IMG/VR virus record: IMGVR_UViG_3300048997_000353
Coordinates: 1-64,000 of that record
DNA from: a virus
Length of the DNA stretch: 64,000 bases
Direction: 5' to 3' (one strand)
Under the pieces are notes generated by a model. The model saw nothing but the letters and a program-made list of their open reading frames with translations, searched no databases and was not told the DNA's origin. Shown here one piece after another: positions 3,368 to 59,560 of this stretch; the stretch's first letter is position 1; every line of letters starts with the position of its first letter. The position numbers and the translations under genes are program-made.

Positions 3368-4342
3368 CTAAAACAACTCCTTCGCCGCGCGCACTTCGCC
3401 GCGGCCGGCCGGTTCCACTATCTTCCTTGCCATCAATCTGTTCAGGTAGGTATCGCGGCTGGACCTTTTATAATTGGTTACTTCGTCGATCGTTCCACGT
3501 GGAACATTCTTCCCCTCTGCCGCCACAAGGATTTCGAACACTCGCCGTTCACCCTCTGGAAGCCTGCCAAGCCAGTAATCCCGTAGCTCCGGTCCCTCGG
3601 GCAGCGGTTCGAAACCGGATCCCAGCGCGTCGACGCCCTCCTGCGTGGCTATGATCTTGCTCCCTGAAAATGTGACGAACCCCCGCACAGAGAGCCGGTT
3701 AGCATAGGTATCGCGGCTGGACCTTTTATAGCCTGTCAGGATCGAAGCCTGCTTCCGCTCGACACCCTCGGGGTACTGTGCCGCCGCCTTCAACACGGCC
3801 AATTCGCCGGGTGGCAGCTCAGTTGCACCGTGATCCCCATTTCCAGACGGTTCCAGAGGCTTTCGCGCTACAGGGTATGCTGTACGTGCTGGACTCGGCG
3901 CGCGCGGCCCTGGTGCGGCAATGGCGGTCACGACGGGCATATTCGGAGCTTCCGGCAGCTTAATAAGAGCTAATTCCGCGCATTCGCCTGCCGTCTTTGT
4001 CAAATAACGACGCAGACGCTGTACGGTCGCCTCAAGTCCCGTAACCTGCTTACCGAATGCACGCGCGGTCTCGGCGATGGCGCGGTCGATCGCGCGCTTG
4101 TCGGGCACCGCGGGCGCGGCCGGCGCGGCAACGTCGCGAGTGGGTCGCGTCCGGAGCTCCCGCTCCAGGTCCTTAATCTTCTTCTTGAATTCCGAAAACG
4201 TGTGGGCTTCCTCTTCGGCCTGCTTTGGCAGATCGCCCAGCTTGGCAAGCCATTCCCGGACTTTCCCTGTCGGGGGCGGCGGCTTCAGTTCGTACTTGAG
4301 CGCGTCCGAACCATGAGGTGTCTCAATCGGACCGACATGCAC
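3368..4342 (-). CDS. Protein with coiled coil and two tandem wHTH-like repeats (resembles the C-terminal half of phage HerA-like ATPase proteins)
   Basis: GTG 4342 after AAGGAG; duplicated motif T(G/N)YKRSSRDTY(A/L)NRL; no P-loop present. Confidence 0.55.
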   Translation of the reverse strand: MHVGPIETPHGSDALKYELKPPPPTGKVREWLAKLGDLPKQAEEEAHTFSEFKKKIKDLERELRTRPTRDVAAPAAPAVPDKRAIDRAIAETARAFGKQVTGLEATVQRLRRYLTKTAGECAELALIKLPEAPNMPVVTAIAAPGPRAPSPARTAYPVARKPLEPSGNGDHGATELPPGELAVLKAAAQYPEGVERKQASILTGYKRSSRDTYANRLSVRGFVTFSGSKIIATQEGVDALGSGFEPLPEGPELRDYWLGRLPEGERRVFEILVAAEGKNVPRGTIDEVTNYKRSSRDTYLNRLMARKIVEPAGRGEVRAAKELF

Positions 4343-55872: not shown

Positions 55873-56215
55873 TTACTTTTGCCGCCCCCTGCATCGCGCC
55901 CAACTTCAAAAGCTGATCTTCGGTCTTTTCGAGTTCGGTGCGGGGCGTTGCCGCTTCGGCCATGCCCGGCTTCTTGTTCACGTCCACGACAGGTTCCTCA
56001 TAAAACTTCGCACCACAAACACGGCAGGTGTGCTGACACAAAATTTTTATAGTTGTGCCAGAAGAGGCTCTTGCCACACATCTTAAATTTCCTTTGGACG
56101 CGCCGCAGACCGGGCAGCGCGAGTCAGGCCGGATTCGCGCGATGTCACGTTGAGTAACAGGCTTAACTAACCACAAAAGTTGTAGCAGTGCAAGCCTGAT
56201 CCAGTAGAAAAGCAC
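55865..56215 (-). CDS. Zn-ribbon protein
   Basis: CPVC and CRVC; GTG start 6 nt after TAGAAT (possibly leaderless). Confidence 0.6.
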   Translation of the reverse strand: MLFYWIRLALLQLLWLVKPVTQRDIARIRPDSRCPVCGASKGNLRCVARASSGTTIKILCQHTCRVCGAKFYEEPVVDVNKKPGMAEAATPRTELEKTEDQLLKLGAMQGAAKVNG

Positions 56216-56279
56216 GGACGGATTCTACGCGAGAAAAAAAGCAAATACTAGCGTGGGTGTTTGAAGCTGTACCAGAAGG

Positions 56280-56366
56280 TCAGGTTGTGTGCTTTGCTTT
56301 TTCCAGCAGCAACCAGGAAACAACACTGGAAAGAGCCATGAAAATGAGCCCGTCGACGTAAGCCAT
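56280..56366 (-). CDS. 28-aa hydrophobic peptide (type I toxin-like; not in ORF track)
   Basis: GGAGG RBS; MAYVDGLIFMALSSVVSWLLLEKAKHTT, one TM helix plus a basic tail. Confidence 0.55.
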   Translation of the reverse strand: MAYVDGLIFMALSSVVSWLLLEKAKHTT

Positions 56367-56510
56367 GATTCCTCCAAACCTCTGGTGGACGACTGAAAGC
56401 AACGTTGCCGCCCACCAGATCAGATGCTCGTGGAGAGTGGCCGGACTCTCCGATACGAGAATTGTCCGCCGCTGTAGGAATTAGGGGAATCAGGCAAAAG
56501 CCGTATTTTA

Positions 56511-56669
56511 TTATCGCTTAAAAGTTGGAGCGCCCGCATCGACGATCACACCAGGTTGCGGAAGGGGCGCGTGGTTTTCGTGGTATGGGACAAGGCTTCC
56601 ATCGGCGAGTCTTACGAACTTCTGGTAGCCCTGGCAGGTCTTGAGAACGATTACGTGTGTTTGGTTCAT
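56511..56669 (-). CDS. Small hypothetical protein (52 aa)
   Basis: AAGGAGG RBS before MNQTHV. Confidence 0.6.
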   Translation of the reverse strand: MNQTHVIVLKTCQGYQKFVRLADGSLVPYHENHAPLPQPGVIVDAGAPTFKR

Positions 56670-56800
56670 GCGAACCTCCTTGCTGTGATTGTGATTACGA
56701 ATGCGGAGTTTTCTACGATTCGGCGCGCCTGTCCATACCATTAACGCCTGAGTTAGAGAAAATATGGTAGTTTTTCACAGCTTGTCCACAGATTTTATTT

Positions 56801-56875
56801 TGGAGCGCCTGGCGCGATTCGAACGCGCGACCCGCCTCTTTAGAGAAGGCTACTCTACCGCTGAGTTACAGGCGC
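56801..56875 (-). tRNA. Amber suppressor tRNA (anticodon CUA), canonical cloverleaf
   Basis: GCGCCTG TA ACTC AGCGGTA GAGT A GCCTT CTCTAAA GAGGC GGGTC GCGCG TTCGAAT CGCGC CAGGCGC T CCA. Confidence 0.92.
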
Positions 56876-56908
56876 CCGGTGCAAAAACCATGTCAAATCG
56901 CGTGCATA

Positions 56909-57388
56909 TTATTCCAACGATTCGACCAAGCTGGTGCCCGGTCCGCACTCAAGCGCAGTGAGCTGCCGCCCACTACCGGGCAGAGAATTGGTGCGGACGG
57001 TAGGATTTTCACCCACACTTTCAGCTTTAGAGGCCGACGTGCCTGACACCGCGTCCGCAGTGTATTTCCAAAGTCGGTAGTTCTTCAGCGCCGCGCGCTG
57101 TTCCCCCGTGATCGGAGCCGTGGCAATCGCCGTAAATCCAAAGTTATTATCCGGTTCGGTCCAGAGGTAGTGCGGGATGTAGTTGGCTTGCAGCTTCGCC
57201 ACGACGCGGCGCAAAGCGGCCACACCGGGCAGGCCGACGACGATGATATTGGGAACGAGATCTTCGTTGGGGTGCTGGATGGCGGCGAGATGGAAAACTG
57301 CATGATTGGCTTGAACGATTTGGTGAGCGACAGGAATGTCCTGTCTAACGAAAACGTACACTGCATGGTCAGTGGGAATCTATGTCAT
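56909..57388 (-). CDS. Pth2-like peptidyl-tRNA hydrolase with an in-frame TAG at codon 3
   Basis: YVFVRQD...QIVQANHA...IIVVG...WTEPD...TAIATAP...LKNYRLW matches the PTH2 family pattern; the frame begins ATG ACA TAG ATT CCC ACT GAC CAT GCA GTG TAC. Confidence 0.82.
56932..56981 (-). ncRNA. 50-nt tRNA-like mini RNA with acceptor stem and ACCA end
   Basis: GCCCGGT AGTGGGC GGCA GCTCACT GCGC TTGA GTGC GG ACCGGGC ACCA: perfect 7-bp acceptor stem plus two hairpins. Confidence 0.6.
56989..57058 (-). tRNA. Atypical 70-nt tRNA with CUA anticodon (short D arm, non-canonical T loop)
   Basis: GCGGACG CG GTG TCAGG CAC G TCGGC CTCTAAA GCTGA AAGT GTGGG TGAAAAT CCTAC CGTCCGC A CCA. Confidence 0.8.
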
Positions 57389-57395
57389 GGCGAGC

Positions 57396-57424
57396 ATTCT
57401 CTGCGTGAACGATGGTGAAGTCAA
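57396..57424 (-). promoter_or_regulatory. Sigma70-type promoter predicted to give a leaderless pth2-like mRNA
   Basis: TTGACT-17bp-GAGAAT, then 7 nt to the ATG at 57388; no Shine-Dalgarno sequence. Confidence 0.65.
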
Positions 57425-57425
57425 C

Positions 57426-57454
57426 AAAAAAAAGGGCGAGCGTTTCTCGCGCCC
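57426..57454 (-). terminator. Rho-independent terminator
   Basis: GGGCGCGAG AAACG CTCGCCC followed by T8 on the minus strand. Confidence 0.8.
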
Positions 57455-57483
57455 GCCCTAAACCAACACCCCATTTTCGAAAG

Positions 57484-57768
57484 TTATGCCGAGGCTCCCC
57501 TAGCCTTGGCTCGCAGTTCTTGCTCCGCGTGGATCGCTGGCTCCGCGTCCTGCAGTGGCCGAATAATCCAGAGCGTGCGCTGTCCGGCGGGAACGAAGCT
57601 CGCGATCGAATGGCCTTCCTTGCAGCCAACCGTGAAAGCCTGGCTGCCGTAGACAACTTCGAAATTGCCTTGTTCACCGTCCAGGATGTCGGCCAAGTTT
57701 GGATTGTTGCTGACGTAAATTCCTGTCCGTTGCTGCTGTTGTTGCAATGGGGTTTGTCGATCTAACAT
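57484..57768 (-). CDS. Hypothetical protein
   Basis: GAGGTG RBS; 94 aa; followed by a terminator. Confidence 0.65.
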   Translation of the reverse strand: MLDRQTPLQQQQQRTGIYVSNNPNLADILDGEQGNFEVVYGSQAFTVGCKEGHSIASFVPAGQRTLWIIRPLQDAEPAIHAEQELRAKARGASA

Positions 57769-57877
57769 TGGTGTTCACCTCTCAGTTTAGGCTGCGCAAC
57801 CCTCAAGGCTGCCTACGGGAAAGATGGCACAGTTCCATATGCAAGGGAATCGGGTGCCTGTTGAAACGCTGTGGAAA

Positions 57878-58240
57878 TCAGTGGAAAAGTTTTGCGGAAA
57901 GTTTAAGTGGCGGGAATAATTTTGGCGAGCGCAGTAGTTCGATGATTGGCTTGTCTGCCTCTAGCACGTGCCATGTATCAGGCACGACTCCGTAATTCTT
58001 CCATGCCTTTTCCACCATGATGTTCAAATCCCTGATCGTGATCGTGGCTACTTCAATCGGACTCTTTCCCCACTTCCCACCGGCAAAAGTATAAACACCT
58101 CCGGAATCCACCGAATAATTCCCAGGTTTTATTTCGCTCGGAAAACTGAAGATCCGAAACGGCCAGGAGCGCGCAGCGGCCGTAGCTGCCACGCCGCCTA
58201 CGATCATGCCCAAGAATCCGCGTCTTGAAAGATTACTCAT
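57878..58240 (-). CDS. Protein with twin-arginine (Tat-like) N-terminus
   Basis: MSNLSRRGFLGMIVGGVAATAAA. Confidence 0.65.
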   Translation of the reverse strand: MSNLSRRGFLGMIVGGVAATAAARSWPFRIFSFPSEIKPGNYSVDSGGVYTFAGGKWGKSPIEVATITIRDLNIMVEKAWKNYGVVPDTWHVLEADKPIIELLRSPKLFPPLKLSAKLFH

Positions 58241-58433
58241 AGAGTTTCTCCACGCGCCGCAAGCAGGCGACGATTTCAGGTTCAACTTGTTGCAGCTTGA
58301 GTGTGCCCATCACCACGCGTTCGATATGACGGTTGGCGACGCCCAGCTCCGTCCAACATCGCGCGCCATCGCCTCGCGTTTCGGCGCGCAACTGGATTGT
58401 GTTCCGTCGTTGAATGTAATCTTCAAGAATCAT
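58233..58433 (-). CDS. Hypothetical protein
   Basis: 66-aa ORF overlapping the start of the next gene. Confidence 0.5.
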   Translation of the reverse strand: MILEDYIQRRNTIQLRAETRGDGARCWTELGVANRHIERVVMGTLKLQQVEPEIVACLRRVEKLYE

Positions 58434-58485
58434 GAATTTTAATGGGACGGTTGGTCACCAGTTATTCCCCGGCAGGGGTGACTCC

Positions 58486-58533
58486 ACGGTACGCCTTCAC
58501 AAGCAGCGTTTCGTCTCACGACTCTTCAGCCGC
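58486..58533 (-). ncRNA. Type I hammerhead ribozyme
   Basis: GCGG CUGAAGA GUC GUGA GAC GAAA CGC UG CUU GUG AAG GCG UA CCGU: intact CUGANGA / GAAA / GUH core with stems I-III. Confidence 0.85.
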
Positions 58534-58609
58534 TAATAACGCCGGGCCAGATGTCAGCAAGACCGTCCCGTCGCTGACCCACGGATCGTACTGCAACATG
58601 CCTTAAATT

Positions 58610-58685
58610 TGGTGGACCTGACCGGCTATGATCCGGCTGCCTCCTGATTGCAAAACAGGCGCTCTCCCAATTGAGCTACAGGCCC
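58610..58685 (-). tRNA. tRNA-Ala(UGC) with aberrant T loop
   Basis: GGGCCTG...TTTGCAA anticodon loop...GCCGG ATCATAG CCGGT CAGGTCC A CCA; G3:U70 Ala identity pair present. Confidence 0.88.
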
Positions 58686-58695
58686 ACAAGAAATT

Positions 58696-59001
58696 CTACG
58701 CTACTTCCGGCAAATAGATGATCCATTGGTGGCCCTGACTGCACCGCGCCGTTTTGTTTCCGAGATCGACGGTGGTCGCGAGATCAAGTGCGTGGCAAGT
58801 TGGGCAAACAATTTGCTCGGCTGGAATATCCTTGCCGGCCACGGTCACATATTGAATTTCCCGGTCCATCGCTTCCTCCACTTTCTCGACTTCTTCCGGA
58901 TCACACAGAAATGCTGAGTCTCCAATGTAAATAATTTCACGGTCGGCATCAGCGGCGTCGAACGTGAAAACTCCGTAGCGATCTGCCACGACGATTTTCA
59001 T
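58696..59001 (-). CDS. Hypothetical Zn-ribbon protein
   Basis: MKIVVADRY start; CPTC...CSQGH. Confidence 0.6.
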   Translation of the reverse strand: MKIVVADRYGVFTFDAADADREIIYIGDSAFLCDPEEVEKVEEAMDREIQYVTVAGKDIPAEQIVCPTCHALDLATTVDLGNKTARCSQGHQWIIYLPEVA

Positions 59002-59327
59002 GTTTCGGTGAACACGATTCCCTTGTCTTGCTCGTACCTGCAACGAATTGTTTTGTCGTTGTGCACAAAAACGACTGACAGAATTGCGTATCGCCCGATT
59101 TTGGTTTCAAGTGGCGTTCCCTCTCCCCACACCGGGAGCGAACTCTTCACGAGCATATTGGCAGCCAGCTTGCAGCGGTCGAGATCATCGCCCGGCTCGC
59201 ACTCAAGACGTAAAATCATGTGATTTCTCTTTTCCACTGGACCGACGTTCCGGATTTTTCCGGCAATGGGCGGATGCCATTCGTTCCCGTAATAGGTGCC
59301 GTTGCACACGACTAGCTTGGTTCTCAT
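58998..59327 (-). CDS. Hypothetical protein
   Basis: MRTKLVV start; ATGA-coupled on both sides. Confidence 0.55.
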   Translation of the reverse strand: MRTKLVVCNGTYYGNEWHPPIAGKIRNVGPVEKRNHMILRLECEPGDDLDRCKLAANMLVKSSLPVWGEGTPLETKIGRYAILSVVFVHNDKTIRCRYEQDKGIVFTET

Positions 59328-59560
59328 GGCGACACATCCAGGTTGATTGCTCTTTTGGGAAGCGGCGGCACTTCTTTTCTGAACACGCGGTCCCAATATT
59401 TTTCTTCTGGGAATAACGGCCACCAGCCCCCTGGCGTTCTTTCCCCAACCACTTTCCAAACGATGCCGCACTCGCAGGTTATCGCATCGCCTTTTTCAAG
59501 GCGGGCATCATCGACTGGCATGAGCCGTATACAATCCGGGCATTGGATGTAGGTATTCAT
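59324..59560 (-). CDS. Small Zn-ribbon protein
   Basis: MNTYIQCPDC...ITCECG after GAGGT. Confidence 0.6.
   Translation of the reverse strand: MNTYIQCPDCIRLMPVDDARLEKGDAITCECGIVWKVVGERTPGGWWPLFPEEKYWDRVFRKEVPPLPKRAINLDVSP

What the first reader, a model, noticed from the sequence alone, without database searches (positions are those of the whole stretch)
56801..57454. Self-contained amber-gated module: leaderless Pth2-like gene with in-frame UAG plus its own CUA tRNAs
Seen: a terminator insulates a TTGACT-17-GAGAAT promoter whose predicted +1 falls on the A of ATG ACA TAG ATT CCC ACT GAC CAT GCA GTG TAC GTT TTC GTT AGA. This is in frame with a PTH2-family domain, and the downstream GTG chosen by the ORF caller has no RBS. 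The same predicted transcript carries two tRNAs with the CUA anticodon. TAG is still a normal stop elsewhere in the window (e.g. 2583, 6243, 21513 in a TAGTG overlap, 33514, 43100), so this is not genome-wide recoding. Established: Pth enzymes recycle peptidyl-tRNA and N-acylated aminoacyl-tRNA, and very short minigenes promote peptidyl-tRNA drop-off. Inference: the hydrolase is made only when the co-encoded suppressor is charged and out-competes RF1. That would make it a feedback switch or sensor of tRNA/termination status, possibly countering tRNA-targeting defences. Without suppression the mRNA is an M-T-stop minigene.
Basis: partly seen in the sequence, partly recalled or inferred. Interest (0 to 1): 0.95.

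Follow-up and report, generated by a model that had tools for sequence, protein, structure and literature searches.

The report
Suppressor-tRNA-gated phage PTH2-like gene
A soil phage that otherwise uses the normal genetic code puts a UAG stop at codon 3 of a small tRNA-hydrolase-like gene and carries two UAG-reading tRNAs just downstream on the same strand; most sampled relatives, including cultured jumbo phages, keep this layout, so the protein is probably made only while the phage's own tRNA overrides the stop.

Summary
On the minus strand there is a terminator, then a TTGACT-17-GAGAAT promoter ending 7 nt before ATG(57388)-ACA-TAG-ATT. That start is in frame with a PTH2-fold domain, which is followed by two CUA-anticodon tRNAs (57058-56989 and 56875-56801).

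The record is a 108-kb phage contig that uses the standard code: 22 of 148 ORFs end in TAG, and reading TAG as sense gives no gain in coding density.

- Of 70 non-redundant relatives, 64 keep an in-frame TAG (never TAA or TGA) a few codons before the domain. In 48 of them it is exactly ATG-NNN-TAG.
- 60 of the 64 have no canonical start codon after the TAG.
- The ATG is signalled by a leaderless-type promoter or a Shine-Dalgarno sequence.
- dN/dS downstream of the TAG is about 0.26.
- CUA tRNAs lie downstream in 34 of 56 gated loci and in 0 of 6 ungated ones.
- A complete 43.8-kb relative has the suppressor as its only tRNA.
- Five cultured jumbo phages carry the gate: GAP32, CBB, Arash, RsoM2USA and ME3.

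Gating by the suppressor tRNA is well supported by comparison but has no experimental evidence. The purpose of the enzyme is inferred only. This scan has flagged the same cassette before on other DNA. I found no published description.

The parts
57425..57459 (-). Intrinsic-terminator-like hairpin (stem 57459-57433) with a T run, immediately upstream of the promoter
   Evidence: 10-pair stem, 8 G-C pairs, followed by TTTTTTTGTT
57396..57424 (-). Sigma-70-type promoter: TTGACT, 17 nt, GAGAAT. The -10 hexamer ends 7 nt before the A of the ATG, which predicts a leaderless mRNA
   Evidence: The same layout (TTGACA, 16-18 nt, TAnnnT, 6-7 nt, ATG) occurs in 21 relative clusters
57377..57388 (-). Gate: ATG (57388-57386), ACA, TAG (57382-57380), ATT
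   Evidence: ATG-NNN-TAG recurs in 48 of 64 gated clusters, and the base after the TAG is a purine in 62 of 64
57059..57376 (-). PTH2-fold domain with its short N-terminal peptide (IPTDHA-VYVFVRQD ... NYRLWKYT)
   Evidence: AlphaFold model with pLDDT 75. The top 11 listed PDB rows are all Pth2/Bit1 chains, TM 0.64-0.71. Pfam PTH2 scores 17.3 bits, below its cut-off. dN/dS is about 0.26
56989..57058 (-). tRNA-B(CUA): starts 3 nt after the last conserved residue of the domain and lies inside the open frame. It has a very small D arm, a UGAAAAU T loop, A73 and an encoded CCA
   Evidence: 41.3 bits; ARAGORN at relaxed threshold only; the lowest-energy fold is not a clean cloverleaf
56909..56988 (-). 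Remainder of the open frame after tRNA-B, up to the TAA at 56911-56909. It is probably spacer rather than conserved coding sequence
   Evidence: the tails of relatives align only where they overlap the tRNA (VGENP corresponds to the T arm)
56801..56875 (-). tRNA-A(CUA): a canonical cloverleaf with anticodon loop CUCUAAA, G1-C72/C2-G71/G3-C70, U73 and an encoded CCA
   Evidence: (60.5 bits). The same U73 type is the second tRNA in many relatives

Best explanation
This is a compact phage cassette in which translation of a PTH2-fold protein is gated by an amber codon that only the cassette's own tRNA(CUA) can decode.

Proposed sequence of events:
1. Transcription starts at or next to the A of the ATG at 57388, giving a leaderless mRNA. 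Ribosomes therefore start there and meet UAG at codon 3.
2. The same transcript carries two CUA tRNAs with encoded CCA ends.
3. Until those tRNAs are cut out, charged by a host synthetase and abundant enough to compete with release factor 1, ribosomes stop after Met-Thr.
4. After that, UAG is read as an amino acid and the full protein is made.

The circuit is thus a delay, or AND gate (a coherent feed-forward loop): promoter on AND suppressor working.

Inferred, not shown: the protein hydrolyses an ester-linked tRNA species (peptidyl-tRNA or N-blocked aminoacyl-tRNA). Its activity would be wanted only while UAG suppression is on. It might clear the by-products of read-through, such as ribosomes running off mRNAs and peptidyl-tRNA drop-off, or it might tune the suppressor itself.
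For: What the sequence shows:
- The anatomy is as described.
- The phage uses the standard code. Coding density is 0.904 under code 11 and 0.907 with TAG as sense, which is no better than the control reassignments. TAG ends 22 of 148 ORFs. Two complete relatives, G001 and G002, behave the same way.

What the comparison shows:
- 64 of 70 clusters of relatives (clustered at 90% identity or less) have an in-frame TAG 5-17 codons before the domain. It is never TAA or TGA.
- 48 of the 64 are ATG-NNN-TAG.
- 60 of the 64 have no canonical start between the TAG and the domain.
- The ATG before the TAG is marked by a leaderless-type promoter in 21 clusters and by a Shine-Dalgarno sequence in 29.
- The domain after the TAG is under purifying selection: median dN/dS is 0.26 over 274 pairs, and 0.0-0.2 for the closest pairs.
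- Same-strand CUA tRNAs lie within 1.5 kb downstream in 34 of 56 gated clusters that have enough flank, and in 0 of 6 ungated clusters. Ungated L002 and L006 carry UUG and UCU tRNAs in the same place.
- Acceptor stems of the 47 CUA tRNAs differ between loci, and most stay complementary.
- Complete genome G001 (43.8 kb) has a single tRNA, the suppressor, next to the gated gene.
- The base after the gate TAG is a purine in 62 of 64 clusters, against 31 of 57 for terminal TAGs.
- The gate is present in the cultured phages GAP32, CBB, Arash, RsoM2USA and ME3. Arash and ME3 have a CUA tRNA within about 1 kb.

Fold: the top PDB matches are all Pth2.
Against: - Nothing here is experimental. Expression, processing, charging and the amino acid inserted are all unknown.
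- tRNA-B is aberrant and does not fold as a clean cloverleaf on its own.
- 15-25% of the genes of these phages end in TAG, and those genes have no nearby back-up stops: the median read-through extension is 40 codons. Strong suppression should therefore be costly.
- 22 of 56 gated clusters show no CUA tRNA within the 1.5-kb flank I could fetch.
- In 3 clusters the codon after the TAG is ATG, and in 41 of 64 it is ATG or within one base of ATG. Re-initiation is therefore not excluded.
- The PTH2 assignment is below Pfam's cut-off, and the Lys-bearing GK loop of canonical Pth2 is deleted. Hydrolase activity is a guess.
- The relatives were fetched with motifs from an alignment dominated by gated members. 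The figure of 64 of 70 is therefore not the frequency in the whole family, which has about 2000 clusters.
Confidence: 0.65

Rival explanations
1. Leader minigene with re-initiation. ATG-ACA-TAG is a true two-codon ORF that terminates. The PTH2-like frame is then translated by re-initiation, or by independent initiation, at the next codon (ATT or ATC, sometimes ATG). The CUA tRNAs serve another purpose.
For: - The codon after the TAG is ATG or a one-base neighbour of ATG (ATT, ATC, ATA, CTG, AAG) in 41 of 64 clusters, and ATG itself in 3.
- Very short ORFs are known regulators, for example the lambda bar minigenes (from established knowledge, not tested here).
Against: - The stop is TAG in all 64 clusters, although TGA and TAA make up 75-85% of stops in these genomes.
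- 23 of 64 clusters have GTT, GTC, GTA, GCT or ACC after the TAG, none of which is an initiator.
- A leaderless mRNA needs its 5' AUG to initiate.
- The TAG co-varies with a CUA tRNA in cis, and ungated relatives carry sense-anticodon tRNAs.
Confidence: 0.12
2. Negative-feedback homeostat. The gating is as in the best explanation, but the PTH2-like enzyme acts on the suppressor itself by stripping its amino acid or peptide. UAG read-through would then settle at a low set point that the phage's own TAG-terminated genes can tolerate.
For: - The enzyme and the tRNA are always adjacent, and in about 20 clusters the tRNA begins 0-7 nt after the domain.
- The phages do not avoid TAG stops and have no back-up stops, so unchecked suppression should hurt them.
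- In G001 the only tRNA the enzyme could accompany is the suppressor.
Against: - No evidence on substrate.
- Canonical Pth2 spares unblocked aminoacyl-tRNA (from established knowledge, not tested here).
- Ungated homologues sit next to ordinary tRNAs.
Confidence: 0.2
3. Linkage lock. The TAG has no regulatory role and simply makes the gene useless without the tRNA, which keeps the two together as one mobile cassette in recombining phage genomes.
For: - The cassette appears in unrelated genome backgrounds, from 44-kb phages to contigs of more than 400 kb.
- In G003 the CUA tRNA sits beside the gene, far from the phage's array of about 30 tRNAs.
Against: This does not explain why the TAG is always within the first few codons, with a purine after it, behind a strong start signal.
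Confidence: 0.08
4. Whole-genome or block-wise TAG reassignment, as in code-15 phages. The gate would then be just one of many in-frame TAGs.
For: A phage-encoded tRNA(CUA) is the hallmark of such phages.
Against: - There is no gain in coding density with TAG as sense in G000, G001 or G002.
- TAG ends 15-25% of ORFs.
- ATG-N-TAG followed by a long open frame is no commoner than the TGA and TAA controls in G000 and G002; the excess in G001 (8 against 5 and 2) is too small to count.
- The record contains no release-factor or GlnRS gene.
Confidence: 0.03
5. Pseudogene: a nonsense mutation at codon 3.
For: A single in-frame stop looks like one.
Against: The stop is conserved in 64 of 70 clusters, and dN/dS is about 0.26 downstream of it.
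Confidence: 0.01

Closest known systems
Stop-codon-recoded phages with their own suppressor tRNAs (TAG read as Gln, 'code 15'; crAss-like, Lak and others)
   Same: A phage-encoded tRNA(CUA) decodes in-frame TAG in phage genes. The proposed use is timing of expression (bioRxiv 10.1101/2021.08.26.457843, from its abstract).
   Different: Here the genome keeps the standard code and one small gene carries the TAG, at codon 3, next to the tRNA. No release-factor or synthetase gene accompanies it.
prfB (RF2) autoregulation through an early in-frame UGA
   Same: An early in-frame stop makes synthesis of a translation-related protein depend on competition at that stop codon.
   Different: prfB needs a +1 frameshift and senses its own product. 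Here the frame is unchanged and the deciding factor is a separate tRNA encoded in cis.
Synthetic suppressor-tRNA feed-forward loop (Nucleic Acids Res 2021, PMC7969014)
   Same: The logic is the same: the target gene carries an amber codon, and the suppressor tRNA is co-induced to remove leak (abstract).
   Different: That circuit is engineered. This one would be a natural counterpart, with the tRNA on the same transcript.
PTH2 of jumbo phages (Iyer et al. 2021, PMC7824862; RaK2 ORF188, PMC3622015)
   Same: The same fold is reported in phages rich in tRNA genes, where it is proposed to act in ribosome rescue or peptidyl-tRNA recycling.
   Different: Neither paper's searched text mentions suppressor tRNAs. 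The family here is below the Pfam PTH2 cut-off and lacks the GK loop.
Orphan suppressor tRNAs of standard-code jumbo phages (XacN1, PMC5852040; RsoM2USA, PMC8504454)
   Same: These are CUA tRNAs in phages with the normal code.
   Different: The XacN1 authors could not find a target. RsoM2USA has an unannotated homologue that starts ATG-TTG-TAG, which gives a candidate target.
Phage lambda bar minigenes (AUG-AUA-stop)
   Same: A two-codon ORF with strong start signals, linked to Pth biology.
   Different: bar ORFs end there. Here the frame continues into a conserved protein, and the stop is always the one that the local tRNA reads.

Membership tests
PTH2 peptidyl-tRNA hydrolase (Pfam PF01981) | Sequence match above Pfam's gathering score | tested here: not met
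   15.8-17.3 bits against a cut-off of 23. 5 of 8 members match weakly, with best E 0.0047. The profile against PDB gives E 0.05 to MJ0051. No NCBIfam model matches.
PTH2 peptidyl-tRNA hydrolase (Pfam PF01981) | PTH2 alpha/beta fold | tested here: met
   The model has pLDDT 75. Foldseek's top 11 listed rows are all Pth2/Bit1 chains (2zv3, 1wn2, 1rlk, 3erj, 1q7s, 1xty), with TM 0.64-0.71 and probability 1.00.
PTH2 peptidyl-tRNA hydrolase (Pfam PF01981) | Active-site motifs (Lys of the GK loop; Asp of the DAG motif; HA motif) | tested here: inconclusive
   The alignment to MJ0051 keeps R-x-D-L, Q..HA and the Asp (invariant D71), but the two-residue GK segment is deleted. The catalytic roles of these residues are recalled from the literature, not tested.
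PTH2 peptidyl-tRNA hydrolase (Pfam PF01981) | Hydrolysis of peptidyl-tRNA | not testable with these tools
   Needs an enzyme assay or complementation of a pth(ts) strain.
Amber suppressor tRNA | tRNA cloverleaf above the Rfam cut-off, with CUA in a 7-nt loop, U33 and a purine at position 37 | tested here: met
   tRNA-A scores 60.5 bits and tRNA-B 41.3 bits against a cut-off of 29. Both have the loop CUCUAAA and an encoded CCA. tRNA-B has a minimal D arm and an odd T loop.
Amber suppressor tRNA | Is aminoacylated and decodes UAG | not testable with these tools
   No RNA run holds the stretch. The identity elements are ambiguous: U73 with G1-C2-G3 in tRNA-A, A73 in tRNA-B.
Stop-codon-recoded phage (code 15) | Many genes interrupted by TAG, and coding density rises when TAG is read as sense | tested here: not met
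   0.904 against 0.907 in G000, with similar results in G001 and G002. The control reassignments behave alike.
Stop-codon-recoded phage (code 15) | TAG no longer used as a terminator | tested here: not met
   TAG ends 22 of 148, 15 of 65 and 20 of 81 ORFs in the three genomes.
Autoregulatory early in-frame stop (prfB type) | An early in-frame stop conserved across the gene family | tested here: met
   64 of 70 clusters; 48 have the TAG at codon 3.
Autoregulatory early in-frame stop (prfB type) | The gene's own product sets decoding at the stop | not testable with these tools
   Depends on the unknown substrate of the PTH2-like protein.
bar-type minigene | A two-codon ORF that ends the reading frame | tested here: not met
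   The frame continues for 156 codons into a conserved domain under purifying selection.

The most novel reading that the evidence does not exclude
A natural, self-contained tRNA-operated switch. Phages with the standard code carry a portable cassette in which a suppressor tRNA and a tRNA-ester hydrolase regulate each other through a codon-3 UAG. This would set a controlled level or time window of UAG read-through in the infected cell. It would also name the long-sought targets of the 'orphan' suppressor tRNAs of jumbo phages.
Probability: 0.25. Interest if true: 0.9.

Novelty: new variant of a known kind. Interest (0 to 1): 0.8.

Why it matters
Suppressor tRNAs have been reported in standard-code jumbo phages without any identified target. 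The XacN1 authors state this explicitly (PMC5852040), and RsoM2USA is a similar case (PMC8504454).

A conserved amber codon at the very start of one gene family, next to those tRNAs, gives a concrete and testable target. It would be a natural example of gene control by a dedicated tRNA rather than by a protein or a small RNA.

It also matters for annotation. The gene is missing or truncated in GenBank records of GAP32, CBB, Arash, RsoM2USA and ME3 because gene callers stop at the TAG. Arash's CUA tRNA is labelled tRNA-Phe.

Because cultured phages of Salmonella, Acinetobacter, Cronobacter and Ralstonia carry the gate, the idea can be tested at the bench now. The compact leaderless version here, about 590 bp from promoter to second tRNA, could also be useful as a small orthogonal expression gate.

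Tried and rejected
DNA context for the protein hits P0002-P0007 and for the roughly 2000 family clusters could not be read.
- A loose DNA pattern scan of viral contigs returned only chance matches; tblastn found no new family member among them.
- Alignments A2 and A3 were too diverse for the metagenome scan. A4 worked.
- Metagenome records could not be extended beyond 1.5-kb flanks. The 22 gated clusters without a nearby CUA tRNA therefore remain open.
- Other read-through targets in this phage were looked for and not found. The TAG at 3368, followed by a 145-codon open frame, is an ordinary gene junction (TAGGAGG-N6-TTG). A codon-usage score found no convincing split genes. ATG-N-TAG-open frames are not enriched.
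- The idea that the phage's tRNA-Thr(UGU) serves the ACA at codon 2 was dropped, because relative G002 has tRNA-Lys(CUU) instead.
- No back-up stops follow TAG-terminated genes.
- No RNA holder was listed among public runs.
- No HD, release-factor or GlnRS/GluRS gene is present in the record.
- Literature searches found no description of the gate.
- Complex prediction was not used, because it does not take RNA partners.
Full report
WHAT IS THERE

The window is the first 64 kb of a 108,441-bp IMG/VR virus record. It carries a portal gene and other tail and head genes on the minus strand.

On that strand the finding's region reads in this order:
- a terminator-like hairpin with a T run (57459-57433);
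- TTGACT, 17 nt, GAGAAT (57424-57396);
- seven bases;
- ATG ACA TAG ATT CCC ACT GAC CAT GCA GTG TAC GTT TTC GTT AGA.

The frame stays open for 156 codons after the TAG.

Rfam confirms two tRNAs with anticodon CUA on the same strand. tRNA-A lies at 56804-56875 (60.5 bits) and tRNA-B at 56992-57058 (41.3 bits); the cut-off is 29. Both have the loop CUCUAAA and an encoded CCA.

tRNA-B starts 3 nt after the last conserved residue of the protein domain and lies inside the open frame. It has a minimal D arm and a UGAAAAU T loop, and on its own it does not fold into a clean cloverleaf. tRNA-A is canonical.

THE PHAGE USES THE STANDARD CODE

- A greedy ORF set covers 90.4% of the record under code 11. 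Its stops are TGA 75, TAA 51 and TAG 22.
- Reading TAG as sense raises coverage only to 90.7%, no more than the control reassignments of TGA or TAA.
- Two complete relatives give the same result: G001 (43.8 kb) and G002 (64.7 kb), both with terminal repeats.
- Frames of the form ATG, 1-9 codons, TAG, then a long open stretch are no commoner than the same pattern with TGA or TAA in G000 and G002; G001 shows a small excess (8 against 5 and 2), too small to count.
- The one long open frame after a TAG stop, at 3368, is an ordinary junction: TAGGAGG, six bases, TTG.
- The record has no release-factor, GlnRS/GluRS or HD-hydrolase gene.

The amber codon is therefore a property of this one gene.

THE PROTEIN

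- Pfam gives only a sub-threshold PTH2 match: 15.8-17.3 bits against a cut-off of 23.
- NCBIfam gives nothing.
- PHROGs gives an unnamed family and a 'hydrolase' family.
- An AlphaFold model built from eight relatives has mean pLDDT 75.
- Its best PDB matches are all Pth2 enzymes or human Bit1, with TM 0.64-0.71.
- The profile alignment to M. jannaschii Pth2 keeps the R-x-D-L, Q..HA and Asp-containing motifs, but deletes the two-residue GK segment.

I therefore call it a PTH2-fold protein of a divergent family, not a proven peptidyl-tRNA hydrolase. The family is large: 1985 cluster representatives at E of 0.001 or better. Many predicted members start inside the domain, as expected if gene callers were stopped by an upstream TAG.

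THE COMPARATIVE TEST

I collected relatives together with their DNA:
- 7 viral contigs;
- 80 metagenome contigs from soil and peat;
- 4 contigs from genomes or MAGs, two of them Candidatus Angelobacter, Acidobacteriota.

The search motifs came from inside the domain, not from the gate. After clustering at 90% identity there are 70 clusters.

Results:
- 64 clusters have an in-frame stop 5-17 codons before the conserved Y-V-F-V-R-x-D strand. In all 64 that stop is TAG.
- In 48 of the 64 the layout is exactly ATG-NNN-TAG. In the others the ATG lies up to 13 codons upstream, for example MRKAIGDL-TAG or MKPER-TAG.
- In 60 of the 64 there is no ATG, GTG or TTG between the TAG and the domain.
- The window's GTG 57361 aligns with an ordinary Val or Phe codon in relatives.

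The ATG before the TAG carries proper start signals. In 21 clusters, including the window's closest relatives L003, L004, L005 and L007, a TTGACA-N16-18-TAnnnT promoter ends 6-7 nt before it. In 29 clusters a Shine-Dalgarno sequence precedes it.

Codon 2 varies, also synonymously: ACA, ACC, ACG, ACT, TCA, CTG, CAA, GCG, CAC and others. The codon after the TAG begins with a purine in 62 of 64 clusters. For the TAGs that end genes in three phage genomes the figure is 31 of 57.

The domain is under purifying selection. Median dN/dS is 0.26 over 274 pairs, and 0.0-0.2 for the closest pairs. This excludes a pseudogene.

LINK TO THE tRNA

- A CUA tRNA lies on the same strand within 1.5 kb downstream in 34 of 56 gated clusters with at least 300 nt of flank. 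It often starts 0-7 nt after the domain.
- No CUA tRNA is found in any of the 6 ungated clusters.
- Two ungated relatives have a tRNA in the same embedded position, but with a sense anticodon: UUG in L002 and UCU in L006.
- Gated clusters without a visible CUA tRNA belong mostly to a clade in which the tRNAs lie more than 1 kb away (L154, L163, L171, L187). I could not extend those records.
- Acceptor stems of the 47 CUA tRNAs differ widely between loci, and most stay complementary. Two recurrent types exist. One has discriminator G or A and is usually adjacent to the gene. The other has discriminator U and is usually second. The window has one of each.
- In complete genome G001 the suppressor is the only tRNA.
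- In G003 (102 kb) an array of about 30 tRNAs sits at 39-47 kb, yet the CUA tRNA sits alone beside the gated gene at 79.3 kb.
- On a maximum-likelihood tree, gated members span the whole family. Ungated ones fall in at least 3-4 places, mostly on long branches.

CULTURED PHAGES

tblastn finds the family in 33 GenBank phage records. I read six of them.

| Phage | Start of the gene | CUA tRNA nearby | GenBank annotation |
|---|---|---|---|
| Cronobacter GAP32 | ATG-GCA-CAA-TAG | none in the stretch read | gene truncated |
| Pectobacterium CBB | ATG-GCA-CAA-TAG | none in the stretch read | gene truncated |
| Salmonella Arash | ATG-CTG-TAG | about 1 kb downstream | tRNA labelled tRNA-Phe; gene truncated |
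| Ralstonia RsoM2USA | AAGGAG-N7-ATG-TTG-TAG | none in the stretch read | gene not annotated |
| Acinetobacter ME3 | ATG-ACT-TAG | about 450 nt upstream | tRNA noted as anticodon CTA |
| Klebsiella RaK2 | plain start, no TAG | none nearby | full-length CDS annotated |

The RsoM2USA paper reports a CUA tRNA without a specific target. The XacN1 paper states that no target could be found. A comparative review of jumbo phages notes PTH2 but not suppressors or a gate. Five literature searches found no description of this arrangement.

HOW IT MOST LIKELY WORKS

Shown by sequence and comparison:
- ribosomes are directed to an ATG that is followed almost at once by UAG;
- the protein behind the UAG is conserved and selected;
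- the only obvious way to make it is to decode UAG;
- the means to do so is encoded next to it and co-varies with it.

Inferred:
- The transcript yields both the mRNA and the tRNAs.
- Early ribosomes stop after Met-Thr.
- Once the tRNAs are processed, charged by a host enzyme and competitive with release factor 1, the protein appears.

This is an AND gate, or delay, of the kind built synthetically in PMC7969014.

Placing the UAG at codon 3 wastes almost nothing when the gate is closed. From what is known of very short ORFs, it is also a position where termination is inefficient, which would favour the tRNA. That is established background and was not tested here.

What the protein then does is open. 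It could clear the peptidyl-tRNA and stalled-ribosome by-products of read-through. It could instead limit the suppressor by removing its cargo. I favour gating at about 0.65-0.7 and hold either functional story at no more than 0.2-0.3.

CAVEATS

- There are no expression data; no RNA run holds the stretch.
- tRNA-B may be a poor tRNA.
- These phages end 15-25% of their genes in TAG and have no back-up stops. A strong suppressor should be costly, which argues for weak, brief or self-limited suppression.
- Re-initiation at the ATT, ATC or ATG codon after the TAG is not excluded for part of the family.
- The sample of relatives is biased towards the gated clades.

RELATION TO EARLIER NOTES OF THIS SCAN

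The same cassette has been reported repeatedly on other DNA, sometimes with a second gated gene (an HD hydrolase) or with gated leader peptides. A later check of one such report accepted the observation and priced the bold reading at 20 in 100.

My tests were done independently on this window and agree with those notes. This window adds four things:
- a minimal, leaderless form with no HD partner;
- a complete 43.8-kb relative whose sole tRNA is the suppressor;
- the count of 64 of 70 clusters, with all stops being TAG;
- the tie to published orphan suppressor tRNAs.

Another note claimed a hammerhead ribozyme at 58444-58569. The Rfam E-value scan of 56000-59500 returned only the three tRNAs.

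Noticed in passing
window 56909-57070 (minus strand): The PTH2-like frame has no stop before tRNA-B. The tRNA starts 3 nt after the domain and the frame runs through it to the TAA at 56909. About 20 of 70 relative clusters also read into the adjacent tRNA, in differing frames, while others have their own stop first. If RNase P cuts at the tRNA 5' end, the mRNA would lack a stop codon.
   Followed up: partly
The Rfam scan of 56000-59500 at E up to 1 listed only three tRNAs and no ribozyme family.
   Followed up: partly
window 57359-57374 (minus strand): A 5-bp hairpin (CACUG-ACCAUG-CAGUG) starts 6 nt after the UAG. The scan flagged it as terminator-like. I did not test whether a structure downstream of the gate is conserved.
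   Followed up: no
L247 3298-3372 (Salmonella phage Arash, OQ632216.1): A tRNA annotated in GenBank as tRNA-Phe has anticodon CUA by ARAGORN. The PTH2-like gene upstream is annotated only from an internal start.
   Followed up: partly
L249 about 1440-1812 (Ralstonia phage RsoM2USA, MG752970.1): The PTH2-like homologue, which starts AAGGAG-N7-ATG-TTG-TAG, has no annotated feature at all in the record.
   Followed up: partly
G003 (IMGVR_UViG_3300005533_000001) 39-47 kb and 79.3 kb: This complete 102-kb relative has an array of about 30 tRNAs, but its CUA tRNA lies 32 kb away beside the gated gene. That tRNA has an 8-nt anticodon loop, CCUCUAGU.
   Followed up: partly
tree: Family members without the TAG (L009, RaK2, L002) sit on much longer branches (1.4-1.9) than gated ones (median 0.21). 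Loss of the gate may go with relaxed or changed selection.
   Followed up: no
G000 78002-78077 (beyond the window): The phage's only other tRNAs are Ala(UGC) and Thr(UGU). Thr(UGU) reads ACA, which is codon 2 of the gate. Relative G002 carries Lys(CUU) instead, so this is probably coincidence.
   Followed up: partly
L009 2402-2489: A weak match to a hairpin-ribozyme family (24.8 bits against a gathering score of 210) just downstream of an ungated homologue. It is almost certainly chance.
   Followed up: no
L202 about 118-135 and L203 about 1480-1500: The ungated L202 starts ATG-ATG-CAG. The gated L203 starts ATG-ATG-TAG. This is a one-base CAG/TAG difference at the same position, a faint hint that Gln is the residue inserted.
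   Followed up: no
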